Shown here in pieces: positions 1 to 13,868 of a stretch of DNA of 39,214 nucleotides (position 1 is its first letter; each line of letters begins with the position of its first letter). Under the pieces are notes generated by a model. It saw only the letters and a program-made list of their open reading frames with translations. It did not search any database and was not told the DNA's origin. The position numbers were made by a program, and so were the translations under genes. Source of the stretch: Bacteroidales bacterium (GTDB taxonomy: Bacteria > Bacteroidota > Bacteroidia > Bacteroidales > 4484-276); the NCBI GenBank assembly GCA_046542305.1, contig JBKHBQ010000003.1, positions 1 through 39,214 on the forward strand, read 5' to 3'.

Positions 1-60
1 CCGGTAGTGCGCCCCGATACTTCGGGGAGGCCGCGAGTTCGAATCTCGCCATCCCGACCA
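1..60 (+). tRNA. tRNA-Pro-derived sequence, copy 1 (5' end outside the window; non-canonical anticodon arm)
   Basis: Shows the D-loop end CCGGTAGTGC, T-arm GCGAG-TTCGAAT-CTCGC, and acceptor 3' strand CATCCCG + A + CCA (G72/A73 as in tRNA-Pro). The anticodon arm is CCCCG-ATACTT-CGGGG, a 6-nt loop with no NGG anticodon, so it is probably not a decoding tRNA. Confidence 0.7.
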
Positions 61-61
61 G

Positions 62-89
62 GGTCATCGAATAGCGATGGCCTTTTTTT
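62..89 (+). terminator. Intrinsic terminator after tRNA-like copy 1
   Basis: Stem GGTCATCG/CGATGGCC (8 bp, one G-U), loop AATAG, then T7. Confidence 0.75.
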
Positions 90-91
90 GT

Positions 92-364
92 ATGGGTAAA
101 ACGCTTTACATACTGCAAAGTCAAAAAAATGGTCGCTATTATGTGGGCTCGACGGATAATTTCCAGCGGAGATTCACTGAGCATAATGGCGGGCAAACCA
201 AATCGACCAGAAATGGAATCCCCTGGATAGCTGTTTTTAACTTTGAATTCCAAAACTCCACTCACGGGCTGAAAGCAGAACGGCGGATTAAGTCTTTGAA
301 AAGCAAAAAAATTATTCAGGGTCTGATAAACCATACCATAGCTATTTCTGATTTGGTAGAATAG
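92..364 (+). CDS. Small GIY-YIG nuclease family protein (UPF0213/YhbQ-like), about 90 aa
   Basis: LYIL...YYVGST...RRFTEHN...AERRIK matches the GIY-YIG core (two beta motifs, catalytic Arg, His and Glu). The ATG at 92 is preferred over 77, which lies inside the terminator stem. Confidence 0.88.
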   Translation: MGKTLYILQSQKNGRYYVGSTDNFQRRFTEHNGGQTKSTRNGIPWIAVFNFEFQNSTHGLKAERRIKSLKSKKIIQGLINHTIAISDLVE

Positions 365-433
365 TAGCGCAGCCCGGTAGTGCGCCCCGATACTTCGGGG
401 AGGCCGCGAGTTCGAATCTCGCCATCCCAACAA
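365..433 (+). pseudogene. tRNA-Pro-derived copy 2 lacking the 5' acceptor strand and CCA
   Basis: Begins TAGCGCAGCCCGGTAGTGC (tRNA position 8 onward, D-stem GCGC/GTGC) directly after the GIY-YIG stop codon. The upstream AGAATAG cannot pair with CATCCCA, and it ends CAA rather than CCA. Confidence 0.8.
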
Positions 434-434
434 C

Positions 435-463
435 AAAGGCAGTTCTGAAGAGCTGCCTTTTTT
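435..463 (+). terminator. Intrinsic terminator after tRNA-like copy 2
   Basis: AAAGGCAGTTC-TGAA-GAGCTGCCTTT followed by TTT. Confidence 0.8.
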
Positions 464-538
464 CATATCCGGAAGTCAGAATGGATCGCAGTTTATGCTA
501 AATTATTCCGGAACCATTATTTAATAGCTAATTCAACG

Positions 539-574
539 AAAAAAGGCAGGTCCGTAAAAAACCTGCCTTTTTTT
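539..574 (-). terminator. Bidirectional terminator ending the T9SS cluster transcript
   Basis: A6-GGCAGGT-N9-ACCTGCC-T7, about 20 nt downstream of the stop at 594. Confidence 0.8.
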
Positions 575-593
575 ATGGTATTAAAACCTGTTT

Positions 594-3500
594 TTACCTG
601 ATGATCACTTTTTCGATCAGGCTGGTAGTTTCGTTGGTGAGCTTGATAAAGTAAACACCTTCGGGCTGGCTGCTCAGATCGAGCGTGCTGCTTCCGTTTA
701 TGCGTTCGCTGCGGATGAGCTGACCCTGCGCATTGGTTACCTCAACATCGAAGGTTCCGTTGATGTCGATGTTGAAGAGGCCGTTGCCCGGGTTCGGGTA
801 GATGCTGTAGGCAGCCTGCTGTTCGCCAATGCCGGTGGCGCCGGCTTTCAGGTCGGTGATCATGGAGAGTCCGTTTTCAACGAACAGTCCGTCGTGCTGC
901 GGCAGGTTCATGTTGTAAACTGCCATCACTTCGGTTTCCTCACCCTGGCTGAAGATCCTGTAGCTGATCTTCTCCATGGCTTTCATACCGTCGATTTCGC
1001 CGGTGGTGGCGTCATCGCCGTAAACGGCAAGCGGCAGCGCGGTTTCGTCACCGCCATAGGTAGCCATACCTACACAGATTCCATCGGTATTGAAAGCGCC
1101 AATGACGTCACCGGCTTCAAGTTGTTGCAGCGCGGTCTCAGCAATCGACACGATGTGCTGGTTTCCGGTAGAAACGGCATCGTTCCAGGTGGTATTGTTG
1201 ATTGCCGGCACCGGACGGGATGCATTGCGAATCGCCGGAACGAAGTACTCGAGCGTAACTTCGTAGTTCACCCTGGCAAGATACGCATAGCCCGGGAAGA
1301 GCGTTTCGAGTGAGCCGTTCATTCCCGGCAGGATACCGCCACCCGGCCAGTACACACCGCCGTAGTGAATATCGAACATGAATTCGATGGCGTCGCCCAG
1401 CGGCATAATTACATCTTCAACTGATACCGGTCCTTCGCTTAATACAGGAATGAAGTAGGTTCCAGGCTGCAGCACCACGTCACGGGTTTCAGGATATTCA
1501 CCCGGGAATACAAAATAGGTGTCGTCGTCGAATTTGGCTTTATAGCCTTTATAGGTATCCCATTCGCCGATGGTGTTGATGTTCTGGCCGGGCCAGAAAA
1601 TTCCCTGCTGCCCGAGCATGATCATAAAGTTTTTGTATGCCGGGGCAAACAGTTCTTCGAGCATCATTTTATCTTCAATCACCAGGTTGCTGGAAATTCC
1701 GTTCCAACCTTCTTCGTACCAAACGGGAAGTGCCGGATTTTCGTTGCAGCCCATTCCGGGAGTAGCATACATCCCTTCATCCTCGCTGATGGCAGCCAGG
1801 TAGGTTGATACTGACCAGCTTGCCGGGTCGTTATTTTCCAGTGTCATGTCGCAGTAAGTCAGTGACGGGCCTTCGCCATCGGTCACCGGATACCAGTCGC
1901 CGCCATCGTCGTAATCAACATAGGCGCGTACCTGTCCGTTGTTATCGGTCAGTTCGATGTCTTCACCGCCGTTGCTCAGACCGCCGCTAAACTGGTAGGA
2001 ATTCACTCCGAACAACGCAAGGAATTCATCGGTATTGGCAGAAACCACTACATATTCGCCCGGTGCAATGAAGTGCTCGGGGAAGGTAAAGCTAACACCC
2101 TGGGTGATCTCCCAATCCTGAAGGTTTACAGTGCCTTCGCCGTTGTTGTAGAATTCAACAAATTCATAGTATTGGTAATGATTCGGCGGGTTGTACATGA
2201 TTTCGGTGATGCGTATGTCGATGGGCGGGATGATGGAGAAGAAATCATCGCTGTAATCATCGAGCCCGCCATTGGTGGCAGTGATATGGATCTTGTAGTT
2301 ATCGCCGTAATCCTGTACCACGTTCCATGTATACGAACCGTTATCTACCGGCACTTCGGTGGCGAGTACTTCCACGTCACTGTTGATTTCGTTCACCAGT
2401 TCGATATCGATGGTTCCTTCATAGTCAAAGGCAGACCAGGTGATCTCGAACTCGGTGTTTTGTTCTATCTGTTCGCCGCCATTGGGATTGAGCACGAGCA
2501 ATGACGGAGGAACAACGATATCGTCCAGGCTGCGGCTGGTGATGAAGTTGCCGTTGAAGCGCGAATTGCAGATGCCGGTGATGTTGCTCGGCGCCGGGGG
2601 AACAGGCGTGCCGATATAATTTACATCATAGAAGGTGGTTCTGAAGGTCCCTTCGGCTTTGCTTGCATCGCTGATCGGATATTCGGTTCCGGTTTCAAAC
2701 AGCTCGCCACCATCGGCAAATATCACATCAAGAATCTGAACCAGCTCGGCTTCGTATTCTTCGAAATTGGTCACCATTTCGTTGATGGTGATCACCTCGG
2801 GGGTAATCACATTTCCGGTGGATGTGGGAGCTCCGGGATCGAGCGCCGGAACAAACTGAAGCATGTTTCCGTATTCGTTGAGCGTTCCGATAAGTCCCGT
2901 AATGCCATCACCCACTTCATATGCCGTGGTGATCACACCTGAATTGTCGTCGATCAGAATGGCTGCCGAAGCGTCCTGTACATATTTTTGATTCCTGAAG
3001 TCCTGCTGGAAAGTCAGCACCACTTCGCCGGTTACTTCGTAGTACATCACATCCGATGTAAACATCGCACGCAGTTCGGCAAGGTTGGCCACCTGGGTCA
3101 CATCCTCGAAATTGAGCGTGACTTCGCTTACAAAGCTGGTCTGATATCCGGGGGCGTAGGCAATGGCTTTTACTGTTGTATTGGTGCTAACATTGATCGG
3201 CCCGGTATATTCCATTGAAGTGTTATCCGGATCGGAGCCATCGGTGGTGTAATATATTACCGCATTAGCTGTGGCAGAGGAGATCTCCAGGTCGAAAGCC
3301 GAAAAATAGGTACCTGACGGATGCGAGAATGAAGGCATCTCTGCTACCGGTGTGCCACCGCATACGGCAACGTGGAAACCAAGTTCGCTCCAGTAATCCT
3401 GAGGCTGAACGATCCACTCTGAATTGTCGGCATCTGTACCTGCCGAGCTTGCCCAGTCGGCATTTGGTGCACAGATGGTGGATTTACGTATAAGTGTGTG

Positions 3501-4940
3501 CTCGGCGGTGGCGTTGGATACACCGGCAACTTCCCATCCGCTTCCGGGATCAGGGCCATCCTGTCCGACACCGTCGATGATTTCCCAACCATCAGGTGTG
3601 TTTTTCGACAGGCCTACAGCGTCATCGCCATTATAAAAAGTGAGGGCGCTGGTTTCGTCGGCTCGATCGAGAATGTATGCGTCTGCATTTGCATTGGCGA
3701 TTACATATACATCACCATGGTCGAGGATTCCACTCAGCGGATAAACATTTTCTGTCCATTCGCCGCCATTGGCAATACGGTGCACGTTGTAGTTCGAGAG
3801 ATCAACAGGTGCGCCGGTTCCGTTAAAGATTTCCACATACTTGTTGTTGCTCGAACCTTCGGCATATTCCGAAATGAAAAGATCGGCGGTACCACCTTCG
3901 CAGGGACTACAGGCGGCGTAGCAAACAGGATCGAGAATACTGTTTGCTTCGGGGACAATCAGATACCTGTTAAAACCCAGGGCACACTCGCCCGGTACGC
4001 TTTCATCTTCGCCCCATTCGTCGCCGTTGATGAATTTGTATTCAATGCAGGCGCCCTTATCCAGGGTAGTGGTGTAGGTGTACACGCCATTACCGGCATC
4101 AATCATGGGTGTATCGCCCGGTGCCCAGTTCTGGAAACTACCTACGATGTGCACGCCTTCGGGGGAGACGGTTTCGTTGTTCATATCCACCTGAAAGGTA
4201 ACATCTACGGTTCCGAGGGTGCAATCGGTGCAGCTTGCGAAGCAAACCACATCAACTACAAGGTCTTCATCGGGCACGGACAGGTATCTGTTGCCATTGG
4301 AGTTGCAACATCCTGGCACCGATTCATCTCCACCCCATGCATTTCCGTTGATAAATTTATACTCGATATACTCGCCTACCGGAAGCGATGTGGTGTAGGT
4401 GTACACAGCATCGTAAGCAAGGGTCATTTCGGTAGCGGCAGGATCCCATCCCTGGAAACTTCCGGCGATATGAACCGGACCGGGAACAGTTTGCTGGGCC
4501 ATATTTACCTGAAAAGTAACATCTACTTCGGGAGGTGCACAAACTGTGCAGCTTCCGAAACAAACCGCTTCGAGTACCATGGGGTCGGTGCCTACATTGA
4601 TAAAACGATTGCCGTTCTGGCTACAACCGCCTGGTATATTTTCATCGGAGCCCCATGCATTCCCATTCACATATTTAAACTCGTAATATCCTTCAGGAAG
4701 GGTCACCGTAATGGCATAAACCGTAGTGGCCCCCACCTGGGTAAGTTCGGTGGTGGAAGGATCCCAGTCGCCGGGATAGCCTGCTTCGTCCTGGAAGCTT
4801 CCGGCCACATGCACCCCGTCGGGTGATATTGCATCTTCATTGGCCATGTCAACCTGAAAGGTTACATCGACCTGCGCAAAAGTAAAGGCAGTGAATCCAC
4901 TCACCAGCAAGATGATGATCAAAAGTGAGATTTTTTTCAT
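594..4940 (-). CDS. T9SS type A-sorted protein D (1448 aa): signal peptide, 3x Cys-containing CBM20/48-like repeats, LTD, chitobiase/beta-hexosaminidase C-terminal-like domain, OB-fold-like region, Kre9-type Ig, LTD, GWxGISS module, CTD
   Basis: Signal peptide MKKISLL...AFTFAQ; repeats VTFQVDM..HxAGSFQ.W.P..YKFINGxxWG; LFISEYAEGSSNNKYVEIFN and ITEIMYNP (LTD); IYYTTDGSDP; C-terminal IYPNP...GVYFIKL...KVII. Confidence 0.9.
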   Translation of the reverse strand: MKKISLLIIILLVSGFTAFTFAQVDVTFQVDMANEDAISPDGVHVAGSFQDEAGYPGDWDPSTTELTQVGATTVYAITVTLPEGYYEFKYVNGNAWGSDENIPGGCSQNGNRFINVGTDPMVLEAVCFGSCTVCAPPEVDVTFQVNMAQQTVPGPVHIAGSFQGWDPAATEMTLAYDAVYTYTTSLPVGEYIEYKFINGNAWGGDESVPGCCNSNGNRYLSVPDEDLVVDVVCFASCTDCTLGTVDVTFQVDMNNETVSPEGVHIVGSFQNWAPGDTPMIDAGNGVYTYTTTLDKGACIEYKFINGDEWGEDESVPGECALGFNRYLIVPEANSILDPVCYAACSPCEGGTADLFISEYAEGSSNNKYVEIFNGTGAPVDLSNYNVHRIANGGEWTENVYPLSGILDHGDVYVIANANADAYILDRADETSALTFYNGDDAVGLSKNTPDGWEIIDGVGQDGPDPGSGWEVAGVSNATAEHTLIRKSTICAPNADWASSAGTDADNSEWIVQPQDYWSELGFHVAVCGGTPVAEMPSFSHPSGTYFSAFDLEISSATANAVIYYTTDGSDPDNTSMEYTGPINVSTNTTVKAIAYAPGYQTSFVSEVTLNFEDVTQVANLAELRAMFTSDVMYYEVTGEVVLTFQQDFRNQKYVQDASAAILIDDNSGVITTAYEVGDGITGLIGTLNEYGNMLQFVPALDPGAPTSTGNVITPEVITINEMVTNFEEYEAELVQILDVIFADGGELFETGTEYPISDASKAEGTFRTTFYDVNYIGTPVPPAPSNITGICNSRFNGNFITSRSLDDIVVPPSLLVLNPNGGEQIEQNTEFEITWSAFDYEGTIDIELVNEINSDVEVLATEVPVDNGSYTWNVVQDYGDNYKIHITATNGGLDDYSDDFFSIIPPIDIRITEIMYNPPNHYQYYEFVEFYNNGEGTVNLQDWEITQGVSFTFPEHFIAPGEYVVVSANTDEFLALFGVNSYQFSGGLSNGGEDIELTDNNGQVRAYVDYDDGGDWYPVTDGEGPSLTYCDMTLENNDPASWSVSTYLAAISEDEGMYATPGMGCNENPALPVWYEEGWNGISSNLVIEDKMMLEELFAPAYKNFMIMLGQQGIFWPGQNINTIGEWDTYKGYKAKFDDDTYFVFPGEYPETRDVVLQPGTYFIPVLSEGPVSVEDVIMPLGDAIEFMFDIHYGGVYWPGGGILPGMNGSLETLFPGYAYLARVNYEVTLEYFVPAIRNASRPVPAINNTTWNDAVSTGNQHIVSIAETALQQLEAGDVIGAFNTDGICVGMATYGGDETALPLAVYGDDATTGEIDGMKAMEKISYRIFSQGEETEVMAVYNMNLPQHDGLFVENGLSMITDLKAGATGIGEQQAAYSIYPNPGNGLFNIDINGTFDVEVTNAQGQLIRSERINGSSTLDLSSQPEGVYFIKLTNETTSLIEKVIIR

Positions 4941-4992
4941 ACGTCAGAAATTTTAATGAATAATTAATTTTTTTCGATTGATATTGTTTAGT

Positions 4993-5041
4993 AAAAAAAA
5001 GTGCCGGTAATCCAGTCAATTACTGACCGGATCACCAGCAC
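4993..5041 (-). terminator. Long hairpin plus U8 between genes C and D
   Basis: On the minus strand GTGCTGGTGATCCGGTCA-GTAAT-TGACTGGATTACCGGCAC-T8: 18 bp with three G-U pairs that form only in this orientation. Confidence 0.8.
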
Positions 5042-5049
5042 CATTTCGT

Positions 5050-8000
5050 TTATTTTCTGATAAAATTTAAGGTTTCCTGTACTCCTGAACTACGGTTGAC
5101 AAATTTAATAAAATAATAACCCTTGTTCAGGCTGCTGATATTGATTGCGGCTTGTTGTCCGGCGATTTCGCCACTGTAAACCTTCTGCCCGAGCGACGAA
5201 TAAATCTCCACATCGGTATACACCGCCCCGGAAAGGCTGATATGCAGAACGTCGGCAGCTGGATTGGGCCAGATACTGATGTCGGCATGAGCAGGCTGAT
5301 CGATTCCGGTAGTTCCCATGGTCAGGTTGGTAACGTAGGAAATGCCGTGGGTGGTAAAGTCACCTGCATCGGCATAGCTCAGATCATATTCTGCCAGCAC
5401 TTCAAAAGTCTCGCCGGTTGACTGGCGATAAACAGCAAAGCTGAATTGCTCCTCCTCTGCAAATCCGTCAACATCTGAAGTGTATACATCATCACCCCAA
5501 ACCATCATGGCTGCCTGCTGACCGTTAACTTCCAGAATACCTGCGCAATACCCGTTTTCTGTAAGTGCAGCAATCAGGTCGCCTTCACGCAATGATGCAA
5601 AAGCGGCCTCACTGAATCCGATGGCATGCGATACAGCGGCAGGTGCAACGGGATTCCAAACGGTTTCGGCTTGCGTACTCTGCTGGGGCTGCGGAATGCT
5701 GAATTTTGCAGCACAATCCGGGAACGTAACAACAGTGTTTGCGCTCACTTTAATAAAGTAGGCGTTACCGGGCATAAGGTAATCGAGCGTAAAGATACCG
5801 CCACCGGGCCAGTAAATCTTATCGCTGCCCATTTCTTTCACAAAGATCAGGTCGGTAAGTCCGCCGAACAAGGCTGCGGCATCAACCGGGCATTCGCTCA
5901 GCACGGGCAGTGAGTTCCAGCCTTCATTCAGATCCACGTTCTTATCAGTAACCGTGGGACCATAAATCACATGATAGCGGGGCTCATCCATCTTAAGCTG
6001 GTATCCTTTTTCATAATTCCAGTTTACGATGGTATTCACGTTGTAAAGCGGGAAGTAAATGCTGTTGAAATCCTGCATGACCGTAAGGTCTTCTACGATC
6101 AGATCCATCATAGGTTCGATGGAAGGATCGGTAGGCAGGACGTATGAAGAAATGCCCGTCCATCCGCCTGAGATCAGGATGCCCTGAGCGGGAAGCAGGA
6201 AGTTGGCCGCACCCGGGCTGCCATAAATCGGATACCCTTCGGCATTCAGCACGGTGTTCTGGGTTTCGGCCTTCCAGCTATCGGCGAGGCTGTTGTCCAG
6301 CGCCGGATCGAGCAGTGCCAGCGAGGGACCGTATTCATCCGGAGCTACAGGCCATGCGCCGCCGTCGTCATAGTCTACGTAATCGATTTGCTCGCCCAGG
6401 TGGTTGCGCAGGTCGATGTCTTCACCGCCATTGCTCAGACCACCTGAAGTCCATTCCAAGGCAACCACGCCAAATGTATTAAACATCACATCGGCATCAA
6501 CAGCTACCAGCACATATTCGCCGGCACCAAGCATATAATCGGGGAAAGTATAATTAATCCCCTCAAGGAAATACCATCCCTCGAGGTTAACTGCTACATC
6601 GCCATTGTTGTAAAGCTCGATGTACTCAAGGCTGTCGATACCACTTTCAGGCGGGTTGTACATAATTTCGTTAATGACCACATCCGGAAGTTGTGCAGCC
6701 GGAACGATCGAGAATGTACCATCGCTTTCATCCATGGGTTCGCCGTCTTCAACATCCGAAATACGTATGATATACCCATCGCCGACGACTTGTGTTACGA
6801 GCCAGTCATAACTGCCATCCGTCACCGGCACATTGTCTGCGATAACAGAAGCTGTTGCTTTTTCCGGAGTCAGCAGTTCGATCATAACATATCCTTCGAA
6901 ATTGGCCCAGGTCCATGTAATGTTGAAGGTGCTGCCCTGCTGGATGGTCTCACCACCGTTGGGATCGGTTACCGTAATCACCGGTTCCACCGGGAAGTTT
7001 TCTGCACCCGGGGATCCTCCGTCCTGCAGGCTGGCTGCCCAACTTTCAGGAAGGCTGTTGTCGATGGTGGGTACCAGCAGCGACAGGGAGGGTCCGTCAC
7101 CATCGGGCTCCGTGGGCCAGGGCGAACCATCTTCGTATGATACAATATCCACCAGTTGACCTACCGGATCGAAAAGCCTTACATCATCACCACTGTTACC
7201 AAGGCTCCACTGGGCATCGCCAACGAAATCGGGGGTAAATGGCAGCGGAGGTGCCAGCAATTCGAGCGACACGGTGAAATACTGCCCGGGAGCAATGCTG
7301 TATCCGTCAGGAAAAACTACCGGGATGTGCGAATCATTATCATCGAGGATATAAAATCCCTCCAGGTCGACGGTAAAGGCTTCGTTGTTGTAAATCTCGA
7401 TCCATTCGTTGTCGTAGCTGGGTGTGTTGTACATAATCTCCGTGATCACCAGGTCGGGGGCGGCTGCCGGTTCGATGATGCTGAACGGGGCATCGCTTTC
7501 ATCGGAAGGTGTGCCTGTTGACACATCGGAAATAATTACCGTATAGTTGATGCCCGGGGTTTGATCGGCAGGAATCTCCCACTCGTACGATCCCTGCGCA
7601 GCCGGCACGGAAGCTTCGATCAGTGTAGTTTGTGACCCGTCAGAGAGTTCGATCTTCACATCGCCGCTAAAGAATTCTGAAGTCCAGCTAATGGTATGGG
7701 TGGTTCCCTGCGCCCAAACCTCGCCGCCATTGGGTTCAAGTACGGTAATGGCGGGAACGACAAATTCAACGATTGAAAATACACCGTCACTCTCGTCCAT
7801 GGGCATGCCATCGTCCATATCGGAGATTTTTATTTTGTAATTATCGCCGACAGGTTGATCAGAAGGAACTTCCCAATCCCAGAGCCCGTCGGTAACCGGA
7901 ATATTTTCTGCGAGCACTTCGCGGTTTTTTGTATCGGTGATCAGTTCGATTTTGATCAACCCGTTAAATCCGAAATAATCCCAGGTAATGGATACCGAAG

Positions 8001-10383
8001 AGCCCTGTTCGATGGTTTCGCCTCCATTTGGATAGGTAACGGTAAGCCCCTCTACACCCACAACCGAATTCACTGCTCCGGGCGTGCCGTTATCCACGAT
8101 GCTGGCAGCCCAGCTTTCGGGGAGGCTGTTGTCGAAAGTTACATCGAGCAACTCCAGCGATGGTCCTGATCCATCAGCTTCCGCTGGCCATGGAGCCCCA
8201 TCGTCATAAGTAACCATATCCAACGTGTTGCCGTCGAAATAATTCAGCTCAACAGTTTCACCCGAGTTCCCCAGGTTACCGCTGGTCCATTGCAGCACAT
8301 CGGTAATTCCGTAATGTTGCATGACAGAATCGGCATTTTTGGCTATGACCATGTAGGTACCATCGGTAAATACGGTTCCCTGCGGGAAGATAAACTCAAT
8401 GCCCTGAGCGAAATACCAATTGCTCATATCCACATCGAATCCACTGTTGTTGTATAGCTCCAGGTATTCGAAATCATCATCGTTGCCAAGGCTTGTGGAT
8501 GGATTATACATAATCTCGTTGATCACAATGTCAGGAACCGGCTGTGGTTCGATAATGGAGAAATATTCATTGCTCACGTCCTGCGGATCGCCGGAATTAA
8601 CACCTTTCACGCGGATTTTGTAGTCATCGCCGGCAGCTTGCGAAGCGGGAATTGTCCATTCGTAGAATCCTGTATTCACAAGGTCGTTCACGATGGTATT
8701 AGGCGTTCCGAACGGGCCTTTCAGCAGAGCAATATCCACATTTCCTGAAAAATCGATATTCTGCCAGGTAATGGTATAGGTAGATCCCTGAACCCACATT
8801 TCATATCCGTCAGGGGAGGTCACAATAATTGTGGGCTCCTGTGCAACAGGTACAATATCTTCCGAGAAACGGCTGGTGAAAAAATCTCCGTTTACACGCG
8901 AATTGGGGATGCCTGTAAGGTTTACTTCTCCCGCCGGAATCGGCGTGTAAAGGTAATCGGCATCGTAGAAGTTGGTCCTGAAATATCCGGTTGAATCCGA
9001 ATTATCTGTAATTTCATACACCGAACCCTCCTGAAAATTTACTCCGGCATCTTCAAATACTGCAGCCTCGATGGTGATCAGCTCCGATTCGTAGGATTCG
9101 AAATCGGCGTAAAGCTCGGCAATGGTAACCACCTCGGGATCGATGATGTTACCGGCCGAAGTAGGATCGCCCGGGTCTTCGGAAGGTGAAAATTGCAGCA
9201 TGTTTCCATATGTATTCAGAACTCCTTTGATGCCGGTTATGCCATCGCCGATTTCATAATCGCTGGTGATCACACCAGGATTGTCATCGATAAGAATGGC
9301 GGCCGTGGCATCCTGTATGAACTTCTGATTTCGCCATACCTGCTGATAGGTGAGGACTACCTCGCCCGAAAGGATGTATTCGTTGCCGAGTGTACCGGCC
9401 CTGAGTTCGGCGATGGTTGAAACCGTGGGTAAGCCTTGTGTGGTGGCACTGGCAGATGGTACGGTACCATCAGTTTTATAATCTACATTCGGACCGGAAT
9501 TGGTATAGGCGTAAATTTCAAAGAAAAATTCGGTGTTGGTAGGTAAGGAAGAAAATATGTAGGATTCCTCTCCATAAACAACGTTTATCGCACCGTTGCC
9601 ATCACTAAAATCCAAATCGTTAACTTCAAATACTCCATCTACGGGTGGTGTGATGGTTGAACTTGTACTTGCCTTGATCAGGTAAGCATCAGGTAACTGT
9701 GTGCCGGTGGCATCGGTCCAGCTAAGGGTAATTTCGATGCCATTCGCTGAAGCAGTAAAATTTGTCGGGTGATTCGAAGGTTCCGGATTAACCGTCCCGC
9801 CACATTCAGCAACATGATATCCAAGGTTATCCCAATAGTTTTGATCATAAACAATCCATTGGGAATCGTCGGCATTTGTTCCTGCAGAAGCAGCCCAGTT
9901 TGTTGTTGGCGAACATACATCAGGCTTTCTGACAATGGTATGGTCCTGAGTTCCATTTTCCAGCCCTGCCACAGGCCAAAATGAACCGGGATCTTCTCCT
10001 TCTACACCTATCACATCTATTAACACACCATCCTTAAACAATCCCACCGCATCATCACCATTAAAATTGATAACGCTGCTGCTGGTAACATCTGCCAAAG
10101 CAAGAATTGAAGCATCGGCTGAACTATGGGCGGCAATATATACATCCCCGTCAGCAAGGATGCCGCTTAGGGTTAATGTATTGCCATAGGGATTCCCATT
10201 ACTGCCTAGTTTTATTTCATAAGCAGATAAATCTACAGTATTCCCGGTCCCATTATAAATTTCTACATATTTATTAAAGCTGCTTCCCTCGGAATATTCC
10301 GAAAAAAACAAATCGGACGCCTGTCCGAAACTAAAATATGTGACAGTAAAAAATAGTACTGTCAGAAACGTAAATCTTTTCAT
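5050..10383 (-). CDS. T9SS type A-sorted protein C (1777 aa): signal peptide, LTD, Fn3-like, OB-fold-like region, 4x Kre9-type Ig interleaved with 3 more LTDs, GWxGISS module, CTD
   Basis: FFSEYSEGSSFNKYVEIYN; three (I/V)xEIMYN..E(Y/W)xE(L/I)YN..WP..xDxxGPSL units; four PxGxExxxQG..I.W units; C-terminal IWPNPA..GYYFIK. Confidence 0.9.
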   Translation of the reverse strand: MKRFTFLTVLFFTVTYFSFGQASDLFFSEYSEGSSFNKYVEIYNGTGNTVDLSAYEIKLGSNGNPYGNTLTLSGILADGDVYIAAHSSADASILALADVTSSSVINFNGDDAVGLFKDGVLIDVIGVEGEDPGSFWPVAGLENGTQDHTIVRKPDVCSPTTNWAASAGTNADDSQWIVYDQNYWDNLGYHVAECGGTVNPEPSNHPTNFTASANGIEITLSWTDATGTQLPDAYLIKASTSSTITPPVDGVFEVNDLDFSDGNGAINVVYGEESYIFSSLPTNTEFFFEIYAYTNSGPNVDYKTDGTVPSASATTQGLPTVSTIAELRAGTLGNEYILSGEVVLTYQQVWRNQKFIQDATAAILIDDNPGVITSDYEIGDGITGIKGVLNTYGNMLQFSPSEDPGDPTSAGNIIDPEVVTIAELYADFESYESELITIEAAVFEDAGVNFQEGSVYEITDNSDSTGYFRTNFYDADYLYTPIPAGEVNLTGIPNSRVNGDFFTSRFSEDIVPVAQEPTIIVTSPDGYEMWVQGSTYTITWQNIDFSGNVDIALLKGPFGTPNTIVNDLVNTGFYEWTIPASQAAGDDYKIRVKGVNSGDPQDVSNEYFSIIEPQPVPDIVINEIMYNPSTSLGNDDDFEYLELYNNSGFDVDMSNWYFAQGIEFIFPQGTVFTDGTYMVIAKNADSVMQHYGITDVLQWTSGNLGNSGETVELNYFDGNTLDMVTYDDGAPWPAEADGSGPSLELLDVTFDNSLPESWAASIVDNGTPGAVNSVVGVEGLTVTYPNGGETIEQGSSVSITWDYFGFNGLIKIELITDTKNREVLAENIPVTDGLWDWEVPSDQPVGDNYKIKISDMDDGMPMDESDGVFSIVEFVVPAITVLEPNGGEVWAQGTTHTISWTSEFFSGDVKIELSDGSQTTLIEASVPAAQGSYEWEIPADQTPGINYTVIISDVSTGTPSDESDAPFSIIEPAAAPDLVITEIMYNTPSYDNEWIEIYNNEAFTVDLEGFYILDDNDSHIPVVFPDGYSIAPGQYFTVSLELLAPPLPFTPDFVGDAQWSLGNSGDDVRLFDPVGQLVDIVSYEDGSPWPTEPDGDGPSLSLLVPTIDNSLPESWAASLQDGGSPGAENFPVEPVITVTDPNGGETIQQGSTFNITWTWANFEGYVMIELLTPEKATASVIADNVPVTDGSYDWLVTQVVGDGYIIRISDVEDGEPMDESDGTFSIVPAAQLPDVVINEIMYNPPESGIDSLEYIELYNNGDVAVNLEGWYFLEGINYTFPDYMLGAGEYVLVAVDADVMFNTFGVVALEWTSGGLSNGGEDIDLRNHLGEQIDYVDYDDGGAWPVAPDEYGPSLALLDPALDNSLADSWKAETQNTVLNAEGYPIYGSPGAANFLLPAQGILISGGWTGISSYVLPTDPSIEPMMDLIVEDLTVMQDFNSIYFPLYNVNTIVNWNYEKGYQLKMDEPRYHVIYGPTVTDKNVDLNEGWNSLPVLSECPVDAAALFGGLTDLIFVKEMGSDKIYWPGGGIFTLDYLMPGNAYFIKVSANTVVTFPDCAAKFSIPQPQQSTQAETVWNPVAPAAVSHAIGFSEAAFASLREGDLIAALTENGYCAGILEVNGQQAAMMVWGDDVYTSDVDGFAEEEQFSFAVYRQSTGETFEVLAEYDLSYADAGDFTTHGISYVTNLTMGTTGIDQPAHADISIWPNPAADVLHISLSGAVYTDVEIYSSLGQKVYSGEIAGQQAAINISSLNKGYYFIKFVNRSSGVQETLNFIRK

Positions 10384-10426
10384 GATGTAATGTTTTTAGG
10401 TTAGTAAATATCCTCCTTAACTAAGA

Positions 10427-10470
10427 CAAAAATAGCTGTACCGAAAGAACTGAATGCTTCCGGTACAGCC
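10427..10470 (-). terminator. Hairpin with short U-tract between genes B and C
   Basis: Minus strand GGCTGTACCGGAAG-N9-CTTTCGGTACAGCT-ATTTTTG (14 bp). The tail also reads TATTTTTG, a Bacteroidota -7 promoter box. Confidence 0.6.
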
Positions 10471-10478
10471 GTAATATA

Positions 10479-13400
10479 TTATTCAATAATCAATCGTTCA
10501 ATAGCATAATCACCTTCAACACTGAAAAGCCTGATGATGTACATTCCTGCATCGAGGTTTCTCAGGTCGAGCTGGTTTTGATATCCCGAAAGCGCTGTCG
10601 AAAGGATCAGGCTGCCGGTAAGATTATATACTTCTGCCCTGTTGATCTGCACTTTGCTGCTGAGGTTAACCAGTCCGTTGCCGGGGTTTGGATAAACAGC
10701 AATAAGCTTTTCGTGAAGCTTTTCGCCTACCGAGGTGGTTTCGGATACCAGGATGTTGTCCACTTCCCAGGTAGAAGCTTCTTCGGTGGTGGAATGATAT
10801 ACAAATGCAATGTAGAGCATGCCGTCAGCATAATCACTAATGTCGATGTTACCGGATTCCGTCCATTCATAGTCTCCCGGCGACCATGCAGCCATTGCAG
10901 TCAGGTCGGTCCATGTACCTGCGGAAGGATCACCGGAGCCGTCATAATCGGTCGACACCATCAGTTCGAGCTGCGGGCCTTCAAATTTCATGGCAGAATA
11001 GAAGTTGAGTATTTCGCCGGATGAATTGGTAAGGTCGATGGCCGGTGAAATCAGCCAGTCTTCATTTTCAAACGCTCCGCCGGAATAGCCGCTCATTTTG
11101 GCGCAGGGCGAATCTTCGATTCCATACTGGTCGGTGCGCACCCATTCCTGATCTCCGGTCACGCTAACCGGTGTCCATCCGCCCCAATCCTGGTTAAAGT
11201 CCGTAAACAGGATGTAGGGAGATTCGCCGGTGATGGCCTGTGCCATGGGCGGTGTACCATCGGTTTTGTAATCTATCTGCGATCCCGAATTCGTGTACGG
11301 GAAAATTTTAAAATAATAGGTGGTGTTCTCCATCAGGCTGACAAACTGGTAGGCCTGCATGCCCTGCGGAATATTTATTGCTCCCGAACCGTCGGCGAGG
11401 TTAGTATCGTCGGCCACGGGGGTTCCGTCCTGCGGCAGTGCAATGTTGTCTTCATCGCTTGCCAGGATCAGGTAAGCTTCAGGCAGAACCTCTCCGGTAG
11501 CATCGGCCCATGAAAGGTCAATCTTCAGTTCCTCGGCCACAGCCGTAAAAACAGTGGGATAATTGGTCGGCTCCGGCATGGCTTCTGATTGTGTAACTTC
11601 GATGTTGTCAACTTCCCAGGTAGAAGCCTCCGATGTATTTGAATAATAAGTAAACGCGATGAAAATGGTATTGCCCGAATAAGCTGAGATATCGATGGTT
11701 CCCGATGGTACCCAATCGTATCCGCCATCAGACCACGACGCCAGATCAGTAAGATCGCTCCAGGTGAAATCATTTGGATTGCCTGATCCGTCGTAATCCG
11801 TTGAAACGCGCAGTTCGAGTTGGGGCCCGGGGAAATTCATTGCCGAGAAGAACTCAAGTACTTCATTGCTGGTGTTGGTCAGATTTATGGCCGGCGAAAT
11901 CAGCCAGTCCTCATTATCCTGTGCACCTCCGGAATAGCCGCTGATGCGGGCACAGGGCGAGTCTTCGATGCCATACTGCTCGGTACGTTCCCATACCTGT
12001 TCGCCAGTTACATTCACCTGCGTCCATCCACCCCAGTCTTCATTAAAATCGGTAAAGAGAAGGTACGGTGAAGATCCTGTGGTAGCTTCTGCCGAAGGTG
12101 CTGTGCCGTCGGTTTTAAAATCGATATCCGAGCCTGAATTGGTATACGGATAGATCATGAAATAATAGGTGGTGTTCTGCATCAGATTTGCAAACTGATA
12201 GGATTCCACACCTGCCATTACATTTACGGCTGCGGCGCCATCGTTCAGGTTTGTATCGTCCGAAACGGGTTCGCCGTCCTGAGGAATGTCGAAGGTGTTG
12301 TCGTCGCTGGCCAGGATCAGATATCCTGTGGGAATAACCGCGCCGGTGGCATCCGTCCACGAAAGTGTGATGTCGAGGTTGTTGGCCGTGGCTGCGAAAT
12401 CGGTGGGATAGTTGGTGGGCTCACCCACAATTTCCGACTGGGTTACTTCCACGTTGTCGATTTCCCAGTTTGCCGCACCGGCAGTGGTGGAATAATAGGT
12501 GTAGGCAATGTACACCATATTTCCTGAAAAGCCAGCCAGATCAATACTTCCCGACTCGGTCCATTCAAAACTGCCTTCCGACCAGTTGACCTGCGAAGTA
12601 AGATCGGTCCAGGTAAAATCGTTGGGATTGCCCGAACCGTCATAATCTGTTGACACGCGCAGTTCGAGCTGCGGCCCGTCGTAACTGGTAGCCGAATAAA
12701 ACTTCAGGGTTTCTCCATTGGTAGCCGTAAAGTCCAGTACGGGAGAAATCAGCCAGTCCTCGTTGTCGAGGGGGCCGCCGGAATATCCGCTCATCAGGGC
12801 GCAAGGCGTGCCGTTGATACCATAGGTGTTGTCGCGGCTCCATTCCTGATCGCCGGTTACACTATAGGTCATCCATCCGCCCCAGTCGTCGTTGAAATCG
12901 GTGTAAAGCAGATAGGGTGAATCGCCGGTAGTAGCCTCAGCATAGGGTGCAGTGCCGTCGGTTTTATAGTCGATGGAAGAGCCCGCATTGGTGTAGGGGA
13001 AGATCATGAAATAATAGGTAGTATTTTCCATCAGGTTGCTGAACTGGTAGGCTTCCGTGCCCGCCATTACATTTATGGCGGCGTATCCGTCGCTCAGGTT
13101 CGGGTCGTTGGAAACCGGTGTGCCGTCAACGGGCAGGTCGATATCATCATCTTCGCTGCCGATAAGCAGGTAACCCTGCGGAATCACCTCACCGGTGGCA
13201 TCCGTCCAGCTAACCGTAATATTTAGATTACTTCCGTTGGCTGCAAATGCAGTAGGATAATTTGTGGGTTCCGGAAGCACCGTACCACCGCAATTGGCAG
13301 TATGCATGCCCAGGTCATCCCAATAGTTGATATCATTCACAATCCACTGCGAATCGTCGGCATTGGTACCCGCCGAAGCTGTCCAGTCGGTGGTGGGCGA

Positions 13401-13868
13401 GCAAACATCAGGCTTCCTGATCAGGGTATGATCTATTGTTCCTTCCACACCGGCAACCATCCAGGCAACTCCCGGATTTTCACCTTCCACACCGATTACG
13501 TCGATCAGGGTTCCGTCCTTGAACAGCCCCAAGGCATCGTTTCCATTGAAATTGATCACCGAACTGCTGGTAAGGTTTGCAATGGCAAGAATCTCATCCG
13601 AAGCCTGCGCATGCGAAACCACATACACACCGCCATCTTCGAGGGTTCCTTCAAGTGTGACGGAATTTTCCATGAGATTGCCGTTGCTGCCGATCTTGAG
13701 TTCGTAAATGGTTAAATCCACCGGTGCTCCGGTTCCGTTGTATATTTCGATGTATTTATTGTAGCTACTTCCCTCGGCATATTCCGAGATAAAAAGATCA
13801 GTAGCCTGTCCTAATGTCGTTGTGGCTGAAATCATGATTGCCACCATTAAAAAGAAAAGTTTTTTCAT
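10479..13868 (-). CDS. T9SS type A-sorted protein B (1129 aa): signal peptide, LTD, 3x [Fn3-like + choice-of-anchor-J/cleaved-adhesin-like], CTD
   Basis: LFISEYAEGSSYNKYIEIYN; three EPTNYPT..YYFxIxPYTN units, each followed by NEDWLISP..WE(I/V)DN; C-terminal VYPNP..GMYIIRL. Confidence 0.9.
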   Translation of the reverse strand: MKKLFFLMVAIMISATTTLGQATDLFISEYAEGSSYNKYIEIYNGTGAPVDLTIYELKIGSNGNLMENSVTLEGTLEDGGVYVVSHAQASDEILAIANLTSSSVINFNGNDALGLFKDGTLIDVIGVEGENPGVAWMVAGVEGTIDHTLIRKPDVCSPTTDWTASAGTNADDSQWIVNDINYWDDLGMHTANCGGTVLPEPTNYPTAFAANGSNLNITVSWTDATGEVIPQGYLLIGSEDDDIDLPVDGTPVSNDPNLSDGYAAINVMAGTEAYQFSNLMENTTYYFMIFPYTNAGSSIDYKTDGTAPYAEATTGDSPYLLYTDFNDDWGGWMTYSVTGDQEWSRDNTYGINGTPCALMSGYSGGPLDNEDWLISPVLDFTATNGETLKFYSATSYDGPQLELRVSTDYDGSGNPNDFTWTDLTSQVNWSEGSFEWTESGSIDLAGFSGNMVYIAYTYYSTTAGAANWEIDNVEVTQSEIVGEPTNYPTDFAATANNLDITLSWTDATGAVIPTGYLILASDDNTFDIPQDGEPVSDDTNLNDGAAAVNVMAGVESYQFANLMQNTTYYFMIYPYTNSGSDIDFKTDGTAPSAEATTGSSPYLLFTDFNEDWGGWTQVNVTGEQVWERTEQYGIEDSPCARISGYSGGAQDNEDWLISPAINLTNTSNEVLEFFSAMNFPGPQLELRVSTDYDGSGNPNDFTWSDLTDLASWSDGGYDWVPSGTIDISAYSGNTIFIAFTYYSNTSEASTWEVDNIEVTQSEAMPEPTNYPTVFTAVAEELKIDLSWADATGEVLPEAYLILASDEDNIALPQDGTPVADDTNLADGSGAINIPQGMQAYQFVSLMENTTYYFKIFPYTNSGSQIDYKTDGTPPMAQAITGESPYILFTDFNQDWGGWTPVSVTGDQEWVRTDQYGIEDSPCAKMSGYSGGAFENEDWLISPAIDLTNSSGEILNFYSAMKFEGPQLELMVSTDYDGSGDPSAGTWTDLTAMAAWSPGDYEWTESGNIDISDYADGMLYIAFVYHSTTEEASTWEVDNILVSETTSVGEKLHEKLIAVYPNPGNGLVNLSSKVQINRAEVYNLTGSLILSTALSGYQNQLDLRNLDAGMYIIRLFSVEGDYAIERLIIE
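10735..13277 (-). repeat. Three tandem 849-nt (283-aa) intragenic repeats in gene B
   Basis: The Glu codon of EPTNYPT falls at 13269, 12420 and 11571, each 849 nt apart. Confidence 0.9.

What the first reader, a model, noticed from the sequence alone, without database searches (positions are those of the whole stretch)
1..463. GIY-YIG nuclease embedded between tRNA-Pro-derived direct repeats: candidate tRNA-associated mobile or tandem unit
Seen: the layout is tRNA-like copy, terminator, 90-aa GIY-YIG gene, tRNA-like copy, terminator. The nuclease stop codon abuts tRNA position 8 of copy 2, so the gene occupies the place of the 5' acceptor strand. There is a 55-bp exact repeat with a 373-bp period and no integrase or transposase in view. 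Established: integrative elements duplicate tRNA 3' ends but encode tyrosine or serine integrases, and GIY-YIG domains drive homing and nicking. Inference: a minimal selfish unit [tRNA body + terminator + nuclease] that expands in tandem behind a tRNA gene by nick-stimulated recombination, or a nuclease paired with a tRNA-mimic RNA. The window starts inside copy 1, so this may be the last unit of a longer array.
Basis: partly seen in the sequence, partly recalled or inferred. Interest (0 to 1): 0.8.

Follow-up and report, generated by a model that had tools for sequence, protein, structure and literature searches.

The report
Tandem nuclease cassette behind proline tRNA
A 373-base unit made of a tiny GIY-YIG nuclease gene and a disabled partial copy of the neighbouring proline tRNA gene is repeated head to tail behind that tRNA gene, and it belongs to a widespread, apparently undescribed kind of selfish DNA that lives in bacterial tRNA genes.

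Summary
Window 1-55 equals 374-428 exactly, with a 373-nt period. A 90-aa GIY-YIG gene (92-364) ends where tRNA position 8 of a 5'-truncated tRNA-Pro copy begins. In that copy a 6-bp/tetraloop hairpin replaces the anticodon arm.

The window starts at a contig end of a k=55 assembly, so "copy 1" is the closure of a cycle in the assembly graph. The intact tRNA-Pro(CGG) lies at the end of contig C101. The cycle is real: contigs from four public runs carry the diagnostic junction, at 2-9 times the depth of the flank. That means several copies, most likely tandem.

The same design recurs elsewhere. A complete relative genome has eight tandem units behind tRNA-Pro(UGG). An intact tRNA gene lay within 300 nt of the homologue in 48 of 66 genome loci and, same-strand, in 33 of 42 metagenome loci, across several phyla. 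A sister genus shows filled, empty and decayed versions of this tRNA-Pro(CGG) site.

My best reading is a selfish cassette that is spread and amplified by nuclease-stimulated recombination between tRNA-derived repeats. The closest known systems are phage SegB and the Ssn nuclease-hairpin pairs. Five literature searches found no description of it. This scan has noted the same class before on other DNA.

The parts
1..373 (+). One full turn of the 373-nt repeating unit as written by the assembler: hairpin-bearing tRNA piece, CCA, terminator, nuclease gene, start of the next tRNA piece.
   Evidence: Exact 55-nt repeat at period 373. A 403-nt cycle contig is present in 4 of 4 runs laid, at 2-9x flank depth.
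1..58 (+). 3' part of a hairpin-bearing tRNA-Pro-like copy, ending in ...CCCG-A-CCA (the element-type 3' end). Bases 27-81 are identical to the last 55 nt of contig C101, which carries the intact tRNA-Pro(CGG).
12..27 (+). Signature hairpin CCCCGA-TACT-TCGGGG in place of the anticodon arm (first occurrence).
   Evidence: The same stem with different tetraloops occurs in G002 and G019.
60..91 (+). Element-borne intrinsic-terminator-like hairpin (60-84) and T-run. The nuclease start codon follows directly.
   Evidence: The same tight layout is seen in homologous loci.
92..364 (+). Single-domain GIY-YIG nuclease gene, 90 aa (an alternative upstream ATG at 77 lies inside the terminator stem). Stop codon at 362-364.
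   Evidence: Conserved Y6, Y17, R27, H31, N32 and E63. dN/dS is about 0.15-0.16 against the G002 and G019 orthologues.
365..428 (+). 5'-truncated tRNA-Pro copy covering tRNA positions 8-71: D-arm, hairpin instead of the anticodon arm, variable region, T-arm and 3' acceptor strand.
   Evidence: Comparison with the C101 tRNA-Pro(CGG). ARAGORN 'tRNA-???'. Folds as three hairpins, z-score -1.2, not significant.
385..400 (+). Signature hairpin CCCCGA-TACT-TCGGGG (second occurrence). In the 373 contigs of G000 this exact hairpin occurs only in the unit.
429..466 (+). Exit from the array: a trailer (ACAACAAA-type) and a second, different terminator (435-460). Read as the displaced native 3' flank of the tRNA-Pro gene.
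   Evidence: The trailer matches that of the empty tRNA-Pro(CGG) site of G013 and resembles that of G002. Terminator. The reading is an inference from 8-9 nt.

Best explanation
The locus is a selfish cassette resident in the tRNA-Pro(CGG) gene.

Components:
(i) a 90-aa single-domain GIY-YIG nuclease gene;
(ii) a partial copy of the host tRNA gene whose anticodon arm is replaced by the cassette's own palindromic hairpin (CCCCGA-N4-TCGGGG);
(iii) a tRNA 3' end plus terminator of its own, so that the host keeps one intact tRNA gene.

Layout, inferred from a 55-nt contig overlap: promoter, intact tRNA-Pro(CGG) on contig C101, then [CCA-terminator, nuclease gene, hairpin-bearing tRNA piece] repeated n times, then the native trailer and terminator. 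By depth n is about 2-9.

Shown:
- the anatomy;
- multi-copy status;
- recurrence of the design in many genomes;
- presence, absence and decay at the same site in a sister genus;
- purifying selection on the nuclease.

Inferred:
- The nuclease is expressed by read-through from the tRNA promoter, since it has no promoter-like site of its own and starts right after the terminator T-run.
- It cuts DNA at or near tRNA-gene or hairpin structures, probably as single-stranded DNA as in the Ssn family.
- The break is repaired by homologous recombination using the tRNA-derived segments as homology arms. This copies the cassette into empty tRNA genes (homing-like) and, by unequal exchange between the direct repeats, expands or contracts the tandem array.
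- The hairpin is the nuclease's cognate site or an immunity mark on the disabled copy.
For: Nuclease:
- Pfam GIY-YIG E 1e-12.
- The invariant columns of the 9-sequence alignment include the positions equivalent to the residues mutated in SsnA (Y6, Y17; E63 here against E64 there).
- Nearest solved proteins are the small UPF0213 proteins 1ywl and 1zg2.
- dN/dS is 0.15-0.16 between orthologues. Array paralogues in G051 have dS up to 0.5 with dN at most 0.047.

Multi-copy unit:
- The 403-nt cycle contig against the downstream contig has depth 56.6 vs 6.49, 21.7 vs 2.8, 8.36 vs 2.64-3.0 and 6.76 vs 3.4 in runs X1, X4, X2 and X3.
- G051 (1 contig, listed as 100% complete) has eight tandem units of the same design, period 343, behind tRNA-Pro(UGG).

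Association with tRNA genes:
- Same-strand tRNA gene within 250 nt in 32 of 41 genome-contig loci.
- Intact tRNA within 300 nt in 48 of 66 loci, of which 38 also have partial copies. Breaks fall at stem-loop borders, about 26-28|44-46, 13-22 and 53-58.
- 33 of 42 metagenome loci.

Hairpin:
- Same stem, different tetraloop, in G002 and G019.
- A YCCCG...CGGGR palindrome is present in 22 of 57 loci. It clusters on the protein tree with 9 changes against 17.6 in shuffles, and 0 of 500 shuffles were as low.

Gain and loss:
- In the sister genus the tRNA-Pro(CGG) site is filled in G002 and G019, empty in G013, and holds only the 3' remnant of the gene in G018.
- Homologues occur in 22 of 61 related genomes.
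- The protein tree mixes phyla.

Native and element ends:
- The distal trailer matches the empty-site trailer.
- The proximal end encodes CCA, as only 3 of 26 tRNA genes of this genome do.

Precedent:
- SegB recognises a tRNA T-arm motif (PMC2330249, abstract).
- SegB drives tandem repeats of a 718-bp tRNA + segB unit (PMC13096335, passages and section 10).
Against: - No cleavage, expression or transfer has been observed.
- Contigs cannot tell a chromosomal tandem array from a 373-nt circle, nor from identical units elsewhere. Depths of 2.6-3.4 in three runs are noisy.
- The intact tRNA next to the cassette keeps a normal anticodon arm. A simple model of 'target = anticodon arm, hairpin = immunity' would therefore have the nuclease cut its own host's gene.
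- The closest relatives have the mirror layout, with a 5' fragment plus a duplicated promoter upstream of the gene. One fixed insertion mechanism is therefore not evident.
- The hairpin stems are invariant in the three closest loci, so there is no covariation and no way to tell DNA-level from RNA-level function.
- The protein is only a catalytic domain, and sequence-specific double-strand cutting by such a protein is not established.
- The tree rests on 84 columns with few supported branches, and related rows share labels.
- The join of C101 to C12 rests on a 55-nt overlap.
Confidence: 0.6

Rival explanations
1. Domesticated host nuclease. The small GIY-YIG protein serves the cell, for example by restricting incoming single-stranded DNA as proposed for SsnA, or by processing structures at highly transcribed tRNA genes. 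On this reading the tRNA fragments and repeats are by-products of its occasional cutting.
For: - Purifying selection.
- Placement behind strong tRNA promoters.
- SsnA modulates natural transformation (PMC11893778, abstract and sections 7, 8, 10).
- No tblastn match at E <= 1e-3 in 50,697 phage records or 72,556 plasmid records.
Against: - Patchy presence, in 22 of 61 related genomes.
- Filled, empty and decayed states of one site within a genus.
- Tandem amplification with differing depth ratios between samples.
- A protein tree that mixes phyla.
- The cognate hairpin is not dispersed in the genome: this exact hairpin occurs only in the unit, and there are 4 SRM-pattern matches in 3.85 Mb.
Confidence: 0.15
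2. Circular form. The 373-nt unit exists mainly as an excised circle that integrates into, and excises from, the tRNA gene by recombination across the tRNA-derived homology (Campbell-type). On this reading the high depth reflects circles rather than a long array.
For: - The unit assembles as a closed cycle in four runs.
- A single crossover 3' of the hairpin between such a circle and the tRNA gene would give exactly the layout here.
- A crossover 5' of the hairpin, with a circle carrying promoter and 5' part, would give the mirror layout of G002 and G019. This is formal reasoning, not a test.
Against: - A tandem array gives the same cycle in a de Bruijn graph.
- A finished genome shows eight units in the chromosome.
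- No replication function fits in 373 nt.
- Contig C12 links a hairpin copy to chromosomal flank through a 56-mer.
Confidence: 0.1
3. Nuclease plus tRNA-mimic RNA. The hairpin-bearing tRNA-like transcript is a partner, decoy or antitoxin-like RNA for the nuclease.
For: - The tRNA piece keeps D-arm, T-arm and 3' strand, and is followed by a terminator.
- The hairpin stem is conserved.
Against: - There is no acceptor stem here.
- The 5' border of the piece varies: position 8 here and about 12-17 in G051.
- In the closest relatives the piece is instead a 5' part cut in the T-arm.
- The fold z-score is -1.2.
- The characterised relative SsnA did not interact with RNA (PMC11893778, section 8).
Confidence: 0.07
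4. Assembly artefact, or a scar of an integrase-borne island. On this reading the repeat is a chimeric contig start, or the usual att-site duplication of a tRNA 3' end.
For: - The window begins at a contig end, and the first 55 nt equal the assembler's k.
- Integrative elements are known to duplicate tRNA 3' ends (established knowledge).
Against: - The junction is present in contigs built independently at k=31 from four runs.
- No integrase domain in the 4 flanking proteins scanned.
- The duplicated piece carries a non-tRNA hairpin, and the design recurs with the nuclease in dozens of genomes.
Confidence: 0.03

Closest known systems
Phage T4/T6 SegB, a free-standing GIY-YIG homing endonuclease in the tRNA gene cluster (PMC2330249 abstract; PMC13096335 abstract, passages, section 10)
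   Same: - A GIY-YIG nuclease gene sits among tRNA genes.
- Its recognition site includes a conserved tRNA T-arm motif.
- It promotes inheritance of itself and the flanking tRNA genes.
- In T6 it drives tandem repeats of a 718-bp unit of tRNA-Tyr plus segB, through recombination between tRNA and gene sequences.
   Different: - SegB is a phage protein. That it is larger and has DNA-binding parts is recalled, not tested here.
- The protein here is a 90-aa catalytic domain on a bacterial chromosome, with no tblastn match at E <= 1e-3 in 50,697 phage records.
- The published neighbourhood analysis covers phage genomes only.
- No signature hairpin replacing a tRNA arm is described in the parts I read.
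- The amplified tRNA copies here are disabled.
Ssn family of single-domain GIY-YIG site-specific ssDNA endonucleases with flanking NTS/SRM hairpin repeats (Chenal et al. 2025, PMC11893778; abstract, sections 7, 8, 10, 17 and passages)
   Same: - A single GIY-YIG domain of about 90-94 aa.
- The gene is flanked by its own hairpin-forming palindrome.
- Many nuclease-hairpin pairs with differing sequences.
- Tyr/Tyr/Glu positions are conserved.
   Different: - The published SRM pattern is absent from window 1-700 and occurs only 4 times in the genome.
- The hairpin here is not a dispersed repeat. It sits inside a partial tRNA gene copy.
- The paper's main text has 0 occurrences of 'tRNA'.
- Membership of cd10448 could not be tested with these tools.
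UPF0213 / YhbQ-like small GIY-YIG proteins (PDB 1ywl, 1zg2)
   Same: These are the best sequence matches among solved structures (E 7e-5 and 2.5e-4), of similar size and with the same motif order.
   Different: - They are uncharacterised structural-genomics proteins.
- No tRNA-fragment context is on record in what I searched.
- The genome's own UPF0213-like paralogue on C104 has no tRNA or hairpin beside it.
tRNA-gene-targeting integrative elements (tyrosine or serine integrase islands, prophages)
   Same: They duplicate part of the tRNA gene and supply a replacement end, so the tRNA stays intact.
   Different: - No integrase here.
- The unit is 373 nt.
- The repeats carry a foreign hairpin in place of the anticodon arm.
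- Tandem arrays form.

Membership tests
GIY-YIG nuclease superfamily (Pfam PF01541) | Profile match above the curated cut-off | tested here: met
   E 1.1e-12, 48.5 bits against a cut-off of 22.6. Whole-genome search gave 48.2 bits.
GIY-YIG nuclease superfamily (Pfam PF01541) | Conserved catalytic Tyr, Tyr, Arg, His/Asn and Glu in order | tested here: met
   Y6, Y17, R27, H31, N32 and E63 are invariant in 9 aligned homologues. Their catalytic roles are recalled from I-TevI and taken from the SsnA mutants in PMC11893778 section 8.
GIY-YIG nuclease superfamily (Pfam PF01541) | The GIY-YIG three-dimensional fold | not tested
   No structure prediction was run. There are sequence matches to the solved UPF0213 proteins 1ywl and 1zg2.
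Ssn family (cd10448) | Assignment to CDD cd10448 / the Ssn clade of the GIY-YIG tree | not testable with these tools
   No CDD library and no SsnA sequence were on hand. NCBIfam gave only a sub-threshold group I intron endonuclease match.
Ssn family (cd10448) | Single-domain protein of about 94 aa | tested here: met
   90 aa, with the GIY-YIG domain spanning residues 9-77 of the 95-aa reading.
Ssn family (cd10448) | Gene flanked by SRM-type hairpin repeats matching the published degenerate pattern, with many copies in the genome | tested here: not met
   0 SRM matches in window 1-700 on either strand, and 4 in the 3.85-Mb genome. The gene's own hairpin is confined to the unit. A different hairpin does flank the gene on both sides within the array.
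Ssn family (cd10448) | Site-specific cleavage of single-stranded DNA only | not testable with these tools
   Needs a biochemical assay.
Free-standing homing endonuclease gene (SegB-like) | Presence/absence polymorphism of the gene at one conserved site between related genomes | tested here: met
   The tRNA-Pro(CGG) site is filled in G002 and G019, empty in G013, and holds a remnant in G018.
Free-standing homing endonuclease gene (SegB-like) | Nuclease cuts the allele that lacks the gene, and the gene is then copied in | not testable with these tools
   Needs cleavage and cross or transfer experiments.
Free-standing homing endonuclease gene (SegB-like) | Sequence homology to SegB beyond the shared catalytic domain | tested here: not met
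   No tblastn match at E <= 1e-3 in 50,697 phage records and no PHROG family. In the PDB search I-TevI scored only E 0.38.
Canonical tRNA gene (for copy 2, 357-431) | Cloverleaf with acceptor stem and 7-nt anticodon loop | tested here: not met
   ARAGORN calls it 'tRNA-???' with a 2-base anticodon. There is no 5' acceptor strand and no Rfam tRNA match above 16 bits.

The most novel reading that the evidence does not exclude
The unit is a minimal autonomous mobile element of a new kind. It would be a 373-nt module that needs only a 90-aa hairpin-specific single-strand DNA nuclease and host recombination. It would parasitise tRNA genes across bacterial phyla by using tRNA segments as portable homology arms. 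It would excise and re-enter as a circle or single strand, and mark the disabled tRNA copy with its own recognition hairpin. Copy number would be a rapidly varying trait in natural populations.
Probability: 0.25. Interest if true: 0.85.

Novelty: new variant of a known kind. Interest (0 to 1): 0.7.

Why it matters
If the reading is right, several things follow.
- Essential bacterial tRNA genes host a very small selfish element that has gone unnoticed. In my samples it occurs in Bacteroidota, Patescibacteria, Verrucomicrobiota, Planctomycetota and other groups.
- It would link the recently discovered Ssn-type single-strand DNA cutters to a concrete genomic niche.
- It would extend SegB-type, nuclease-driven tandem amplification from phages to bacterial chromosomes.
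- It would explain many pseudo-tRNA calls, tRNA-like fragments and contig breaks next to tRNA genes in metagenome assemblies.
- The many nuclease-hairpin pairs could be a source of new site-specific ssDNA nucleases.

What this window adds is a gene-bearing unit caught as a multi-copy cycle, with different depth ratios in different samples.

Tried and rejected
- Rfam scan of 1-700 at E <= 10 gave only chance-level matches and a 16-bit tmRNA-3'-end match. No known RNA family applies.
- The SRM pattern of the Ssn paper was not found at the locus.
- PHROGs gave no family. NCBIfam gave nothing above cut-off.
- tblastn against phage and plasmid collections gave no match at E <= 1e-3.
I used the single protein instead.
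- The metagenome-contig scan found no close relative (best 50% identity), so it could not resolve this array.
- Only Logan contigs were on hand, not raw reads, so starts, ends, exact copy number and rare empty-site alleles could not be read. No contig showing an empty site was seen, which proves nothing.
- A search for the same protein in earlier findings of this scan found none.
- The genome's other small GIY-YIG gene (C104) shows no tRNA context, so the association is not a property of every small GIY-YIG gene.
- I considered that the hairpin derives from the tRNA-Pro anticodon loop, since both share TTCGGG. I set this aside because the same hairpin core sits in tRNA-Val and other tRNA copies that do not share it.
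- Supplementary files of the three papers were not seen. Those of PMC11893778 (lists of homologues and flanking motifs) and PMC13096335 (neighbourhood tables) might mention tRNA contexts that the main texts do not.
Full report
**1. The observation**

- Bases 1-55 and 374-428 are identical. Over 58 nt there is one mismatch. The spacing is 373 nt.
- Between the two copies lies an ORF, 77-364. Homologues start at the equivalent of ATG 92, giving 90 aa. The ORF matches Pfam GIY-YIG at E 1.1e-12.
- ARAGORN sees only a 'tRNA-???' at 357-431 with a two-base anticodon.
- Rfam offers nothing better than a 16-bit match to the 3' end of tmRNA.
- Terminator-like hairpins with T-runs follow each copy, at 60-84 and 435-460.
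- Pfam scans of the four flanking proteins show an APP1-like phosphatase and three large type-IX-secreted LTD-domain proteins. There is no integrase or transposase.

**2.

The window is the first 39 kb of contig C12 of a 373-contig metagenome-assembled genome. 60 of 746 contig ends have an exact terminal match of precisely 55 nt elsewhere in the assembly, so it was built on a de Bruijn graph with k=55.
- The first 55 nt of C12 equal C12 374-428.
- The last 55 nt of contig C101 equal C12 27-81.
- C101 ends in a normal tRNA-Pro(CGG) with its promoter.

Copy 1 is therefore one traversal of a cycle in the graph. The entry to the cycle is the intact tRNA-Pro on C101. The exit is at 428/429.

Comparison with the intact gene shows that copy 2 corresponds to tRNA positions 8-71. 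The nuclease stop codon lies directly before position 8. The 17-nt anticodon arm is replaced by a 16-nt hairpin, CCCCGA-TACT-TCGGGG.

**3. Is the cycle real?**

Seven public runs from three studies hold part of the stretch, all kept as Logan contigs. I laid four of them.
- In X1, X2 and X4 a 403-nt contig covers 26-428. That is 373 nt plus the 30-nt k-1 overlap.
- In X3 the same 403-nt contig is circularly permuted.
- All four contigs contain the junction 'hairpin copy, then GACCA and the internal terminator', which exists only if units follow each other or close on themselves.

| Run | Cycle contig depth | Downstream contig depth | Ratio |
|---|---|---|---|
| X1 | 56.6 | 6.49 | 8.7x |
| X4 | 21.7 | 2.8 | 7.8x |
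| X2 | 8.36 | 2.64-3.0 | about 3x |
| X3 | 6.76 | 3.4 | 2x |

The low depths are noisy. One run may be the source of the window. Contigs cannot separate a tandem array from a circle. The duplication is nevertheless not an assembly artefact, and the unit is multi-copy.

**4. Relatives**

Among 61 genomes of the same family and order (G000 included), 22 have a homologue at E <= 1e-8.

G051 is a single-contig genome listed as 100% complete. It has eight tandem copies with a 343-nt period, directly after two tRNA-Pro(UGG) genes.
- Each unit is terminator, nuclease gene, then a tRNA piece starting in the D-loop.
- The gene's stop codon is the TAG of the D-loop.
- A short hairpin replaces the anticodon arm.
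- The T-arm and 3' end are identical to the local tRNA.
- The array ends in a truncated ninth gene.

The two closest homologues (64% and 63% identity, G002 and G019) sit at tRNA-Pro(CGG) too, but in mirror layout. The order there is a duplicated promoter plus tRNA positions 1-28, the same CCCCGA...TCGGGG stem with tetraloops TTGG or TCGG, a truncated T-arm, the nuclease gene, then promoter and intact tRNA.

In the same genus:
- G013 has the tRNA-Pro(CGG) site without any cassette.
- G018 retains only the last codons of the nuclease gene.

The trailer after the tRNA in G013 (ACAACAAA...) is the one that follows our distal copy at 429-437. Our internal copies and the intact gene are followed by CCA and a different terminator. 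Only 3 of 26 tRNA genes in this genome encode CCA. I infer that the distal 3' part and terminator are the displaced native end, and that the end now completing the intact tRNA came with the cassette.

**5. Generality**

- In 41 loci from one-genome-per-species contigs, 32 have a same-strand tRNA gene within 250 nt of the nuclease gene. These loci span Bacteroidota, Patescibacteria, Verrucomicrobiota, Planctomycetota, a PVC-group bacterium, Ignavibacteriota and Pseudomonadota (including Micavibrio). The nearest tRNA is upstream in 19 and downstream in 13.
- I pooled these with 25 loci from relatives, after dropping 4 overlapping loci. Of the 66, 48 have an intact tRNA within 300 nt. Of those 48, 38 also carry partial copies of that tRNA, almost always in the same orientation. 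Breaks fall at about 26-28|44-46, 13-22 or 53-58, which are the borders of the arms.
- An independent sample of 42 metagenome loci gives 33 with a same-strand tRNA within 300 nt.
- By a rough estimate of mine, a few dozen tRNA genes in 3-5 Mb would give about 1% by chance.
- Protein clades keep to particular tRNAs: Pro(CGG) here, Phe(GAA), Val(UAC) and Ala(GGC) elsewhere.

**6. The hairpin**

- A palindrome with the core YCCCG...CGGGR lies within 400 nt of the gene in 22 of 57 loci. Ten rows were left out, 4 with stops in the match and 6 with short matches.
- It sits in copies of different tRNAs, so it is not derived from the tRNA.
- On the protein tree the label needs 9 changes against 17.6 in shuffles, and 0 of 500 shuffles were as low. 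The tree has only 84 columns and related rows share labels, so this is suggestive only.
- Other clades carry other palindromes, for example a 20-nt CCTGCC...GGCAGG type in D- or T-loop positions.
- In our genome the hairpin occurs only in the unit. The SRM pattern of the Ssn paper is absent from the locus.

**7. The protein**

- Y6, Y17, R27, H31, N32 and E63 are invariant in nine homologues.
- The nearest solved structures are the UPF0213 proteins 1ywl and 1zg2.
- dN/dS is 0.15-0.16 between orthologues.
- The eight G051 paralogues differ by dS up to 0.5 with dN at most 0.047, so the copies are kept functional.
- The start codon follows the terminator T-run directly, here and in several homologous loci. 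The only promoter-like matches lie inside the ORF. I infer expression by read-through from the tRNA promoter. In the mirror layout a duplicated tRNA promoter precedes the gene.

**8. Mechanism**

The best-supported reading is a selfish cassette that lives in tRNA genes.
- The tRNA-derived segments give it homology to any similar tRNA gene.
- Its own tRNA end keeps the host gene intact.
- Its nuclease makes the break that triggers copying into empty sites, and unequal exchange between the direct repeats. That exchange would account for the arrays.

Every step after the anatomy is inference. It leans on two experimentally studied systems.
- SegB of T4 recognises a site containing the conserved T-arm motif and drives its own inheritance (PMC2330249, abstract). 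In T6 it generates tandem repeats of a 718-bp tRNA-Tyr + segB unit (PMC13096335, abstract, passages, section 10).
- The Ssn family consists of about 94-aa single-domain GIY-YIG enzymes that bind their flanking hairpin and cut single-stranded DNA beside it (PMC11893778, abstract, sections 7, 8, 10, 17).

Unresolved points:
- The intact tRNA keeps a normal anticodon arm, so what is cut is unknown.
- Two mirror layouts exist.
- Array and circle cannot be told apart here.

**9. Novelty**

Five full-text searches found no description of a chromosomal, tRNA-embedded mini GIY-YIG cassette with hairpin-substituted tRNA copies.
- The Ssn paper's main text never mentions tRNA.
- The SegB neighbourhood analysis covers phage genomes only.
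- Supplements were not available.

Earlier AI notes of this scan describe the same class on other DNA, including Bacteroidota and Patescibacteria. They gave me the leads to the Ssn and SegB papers, and I checked those claims only as far as stated here.

This window adds:
- a gene-bearing unit caught as a multi-copy cycle in several samples;
- the filled, empty and decayed series at one site;
- the evidence on the native trailer.

Noticed in passing
window 594-13868 (- strand): Three consecutive very large genes (1448, 1777 and 1129 aa). Each carries lamin-tail (LTD) domains and a type IX secretion C-terminal sorting domain. The first also has starch/glycogen-binding modules.
   Followed up: partly
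G000 contig C104:4396-4635 (L084 1250-2050, - strand): A second small GIY-YIG gene of the UPF0213 type with a C-terminal extension. It has no tRNA gene, tRNA fragment or signature hairpin beside it.
   Followed up: partly
L075 1400-1724 (G018): The tRNA-Pro(CGG) site holds only the last codons of the nuclease gene, partly duplicated. The neighbouring tRNA has several mismatches in the T-arm, so it looks like a decaying cassette and possibly a damaged tRNA. The contig ends there.
   Followed up: partly
L007, L009, L028, L029 (relatives G055, G031, G016): A different palindrome of about 20 nt, the CCTGCC...GGCAGG type, sits inside D-loop or T-loop positions of tRNA fragments next to other clades of the same nuclease family.
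   Followed up: partly
L013/L027 (G023), about 200-1940: A dense run of tRNA-Val-like copies with 6-nt 'anticodon' loops, each carrying a TTCCGT...ACGGAA hairpin. They are interleaved with two intact tRNA-Val genes, a 'tRNA-Phe(AAA)' call that is probably another such copy, and two nuclease genes.
   Followed up: no
L006/L025 (G051 C1:3903987-3906700): The eight tandem nuclease paralogues differ by dS up to 0.5 but dN at most 0.047. One has an internal TAG. The first of the two intact tRNA-Pro(UGG) genes has an ACAACAAA-type trailer, and the second has the cassette-type trailer.
   Followed up: partly
L007, L028 (relatives): In some loci the nuclease ORF runs into the first 15-21 nt of the intact downstream tRNA gene and takes its stop codon from the D-loop.
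   Followed up: no
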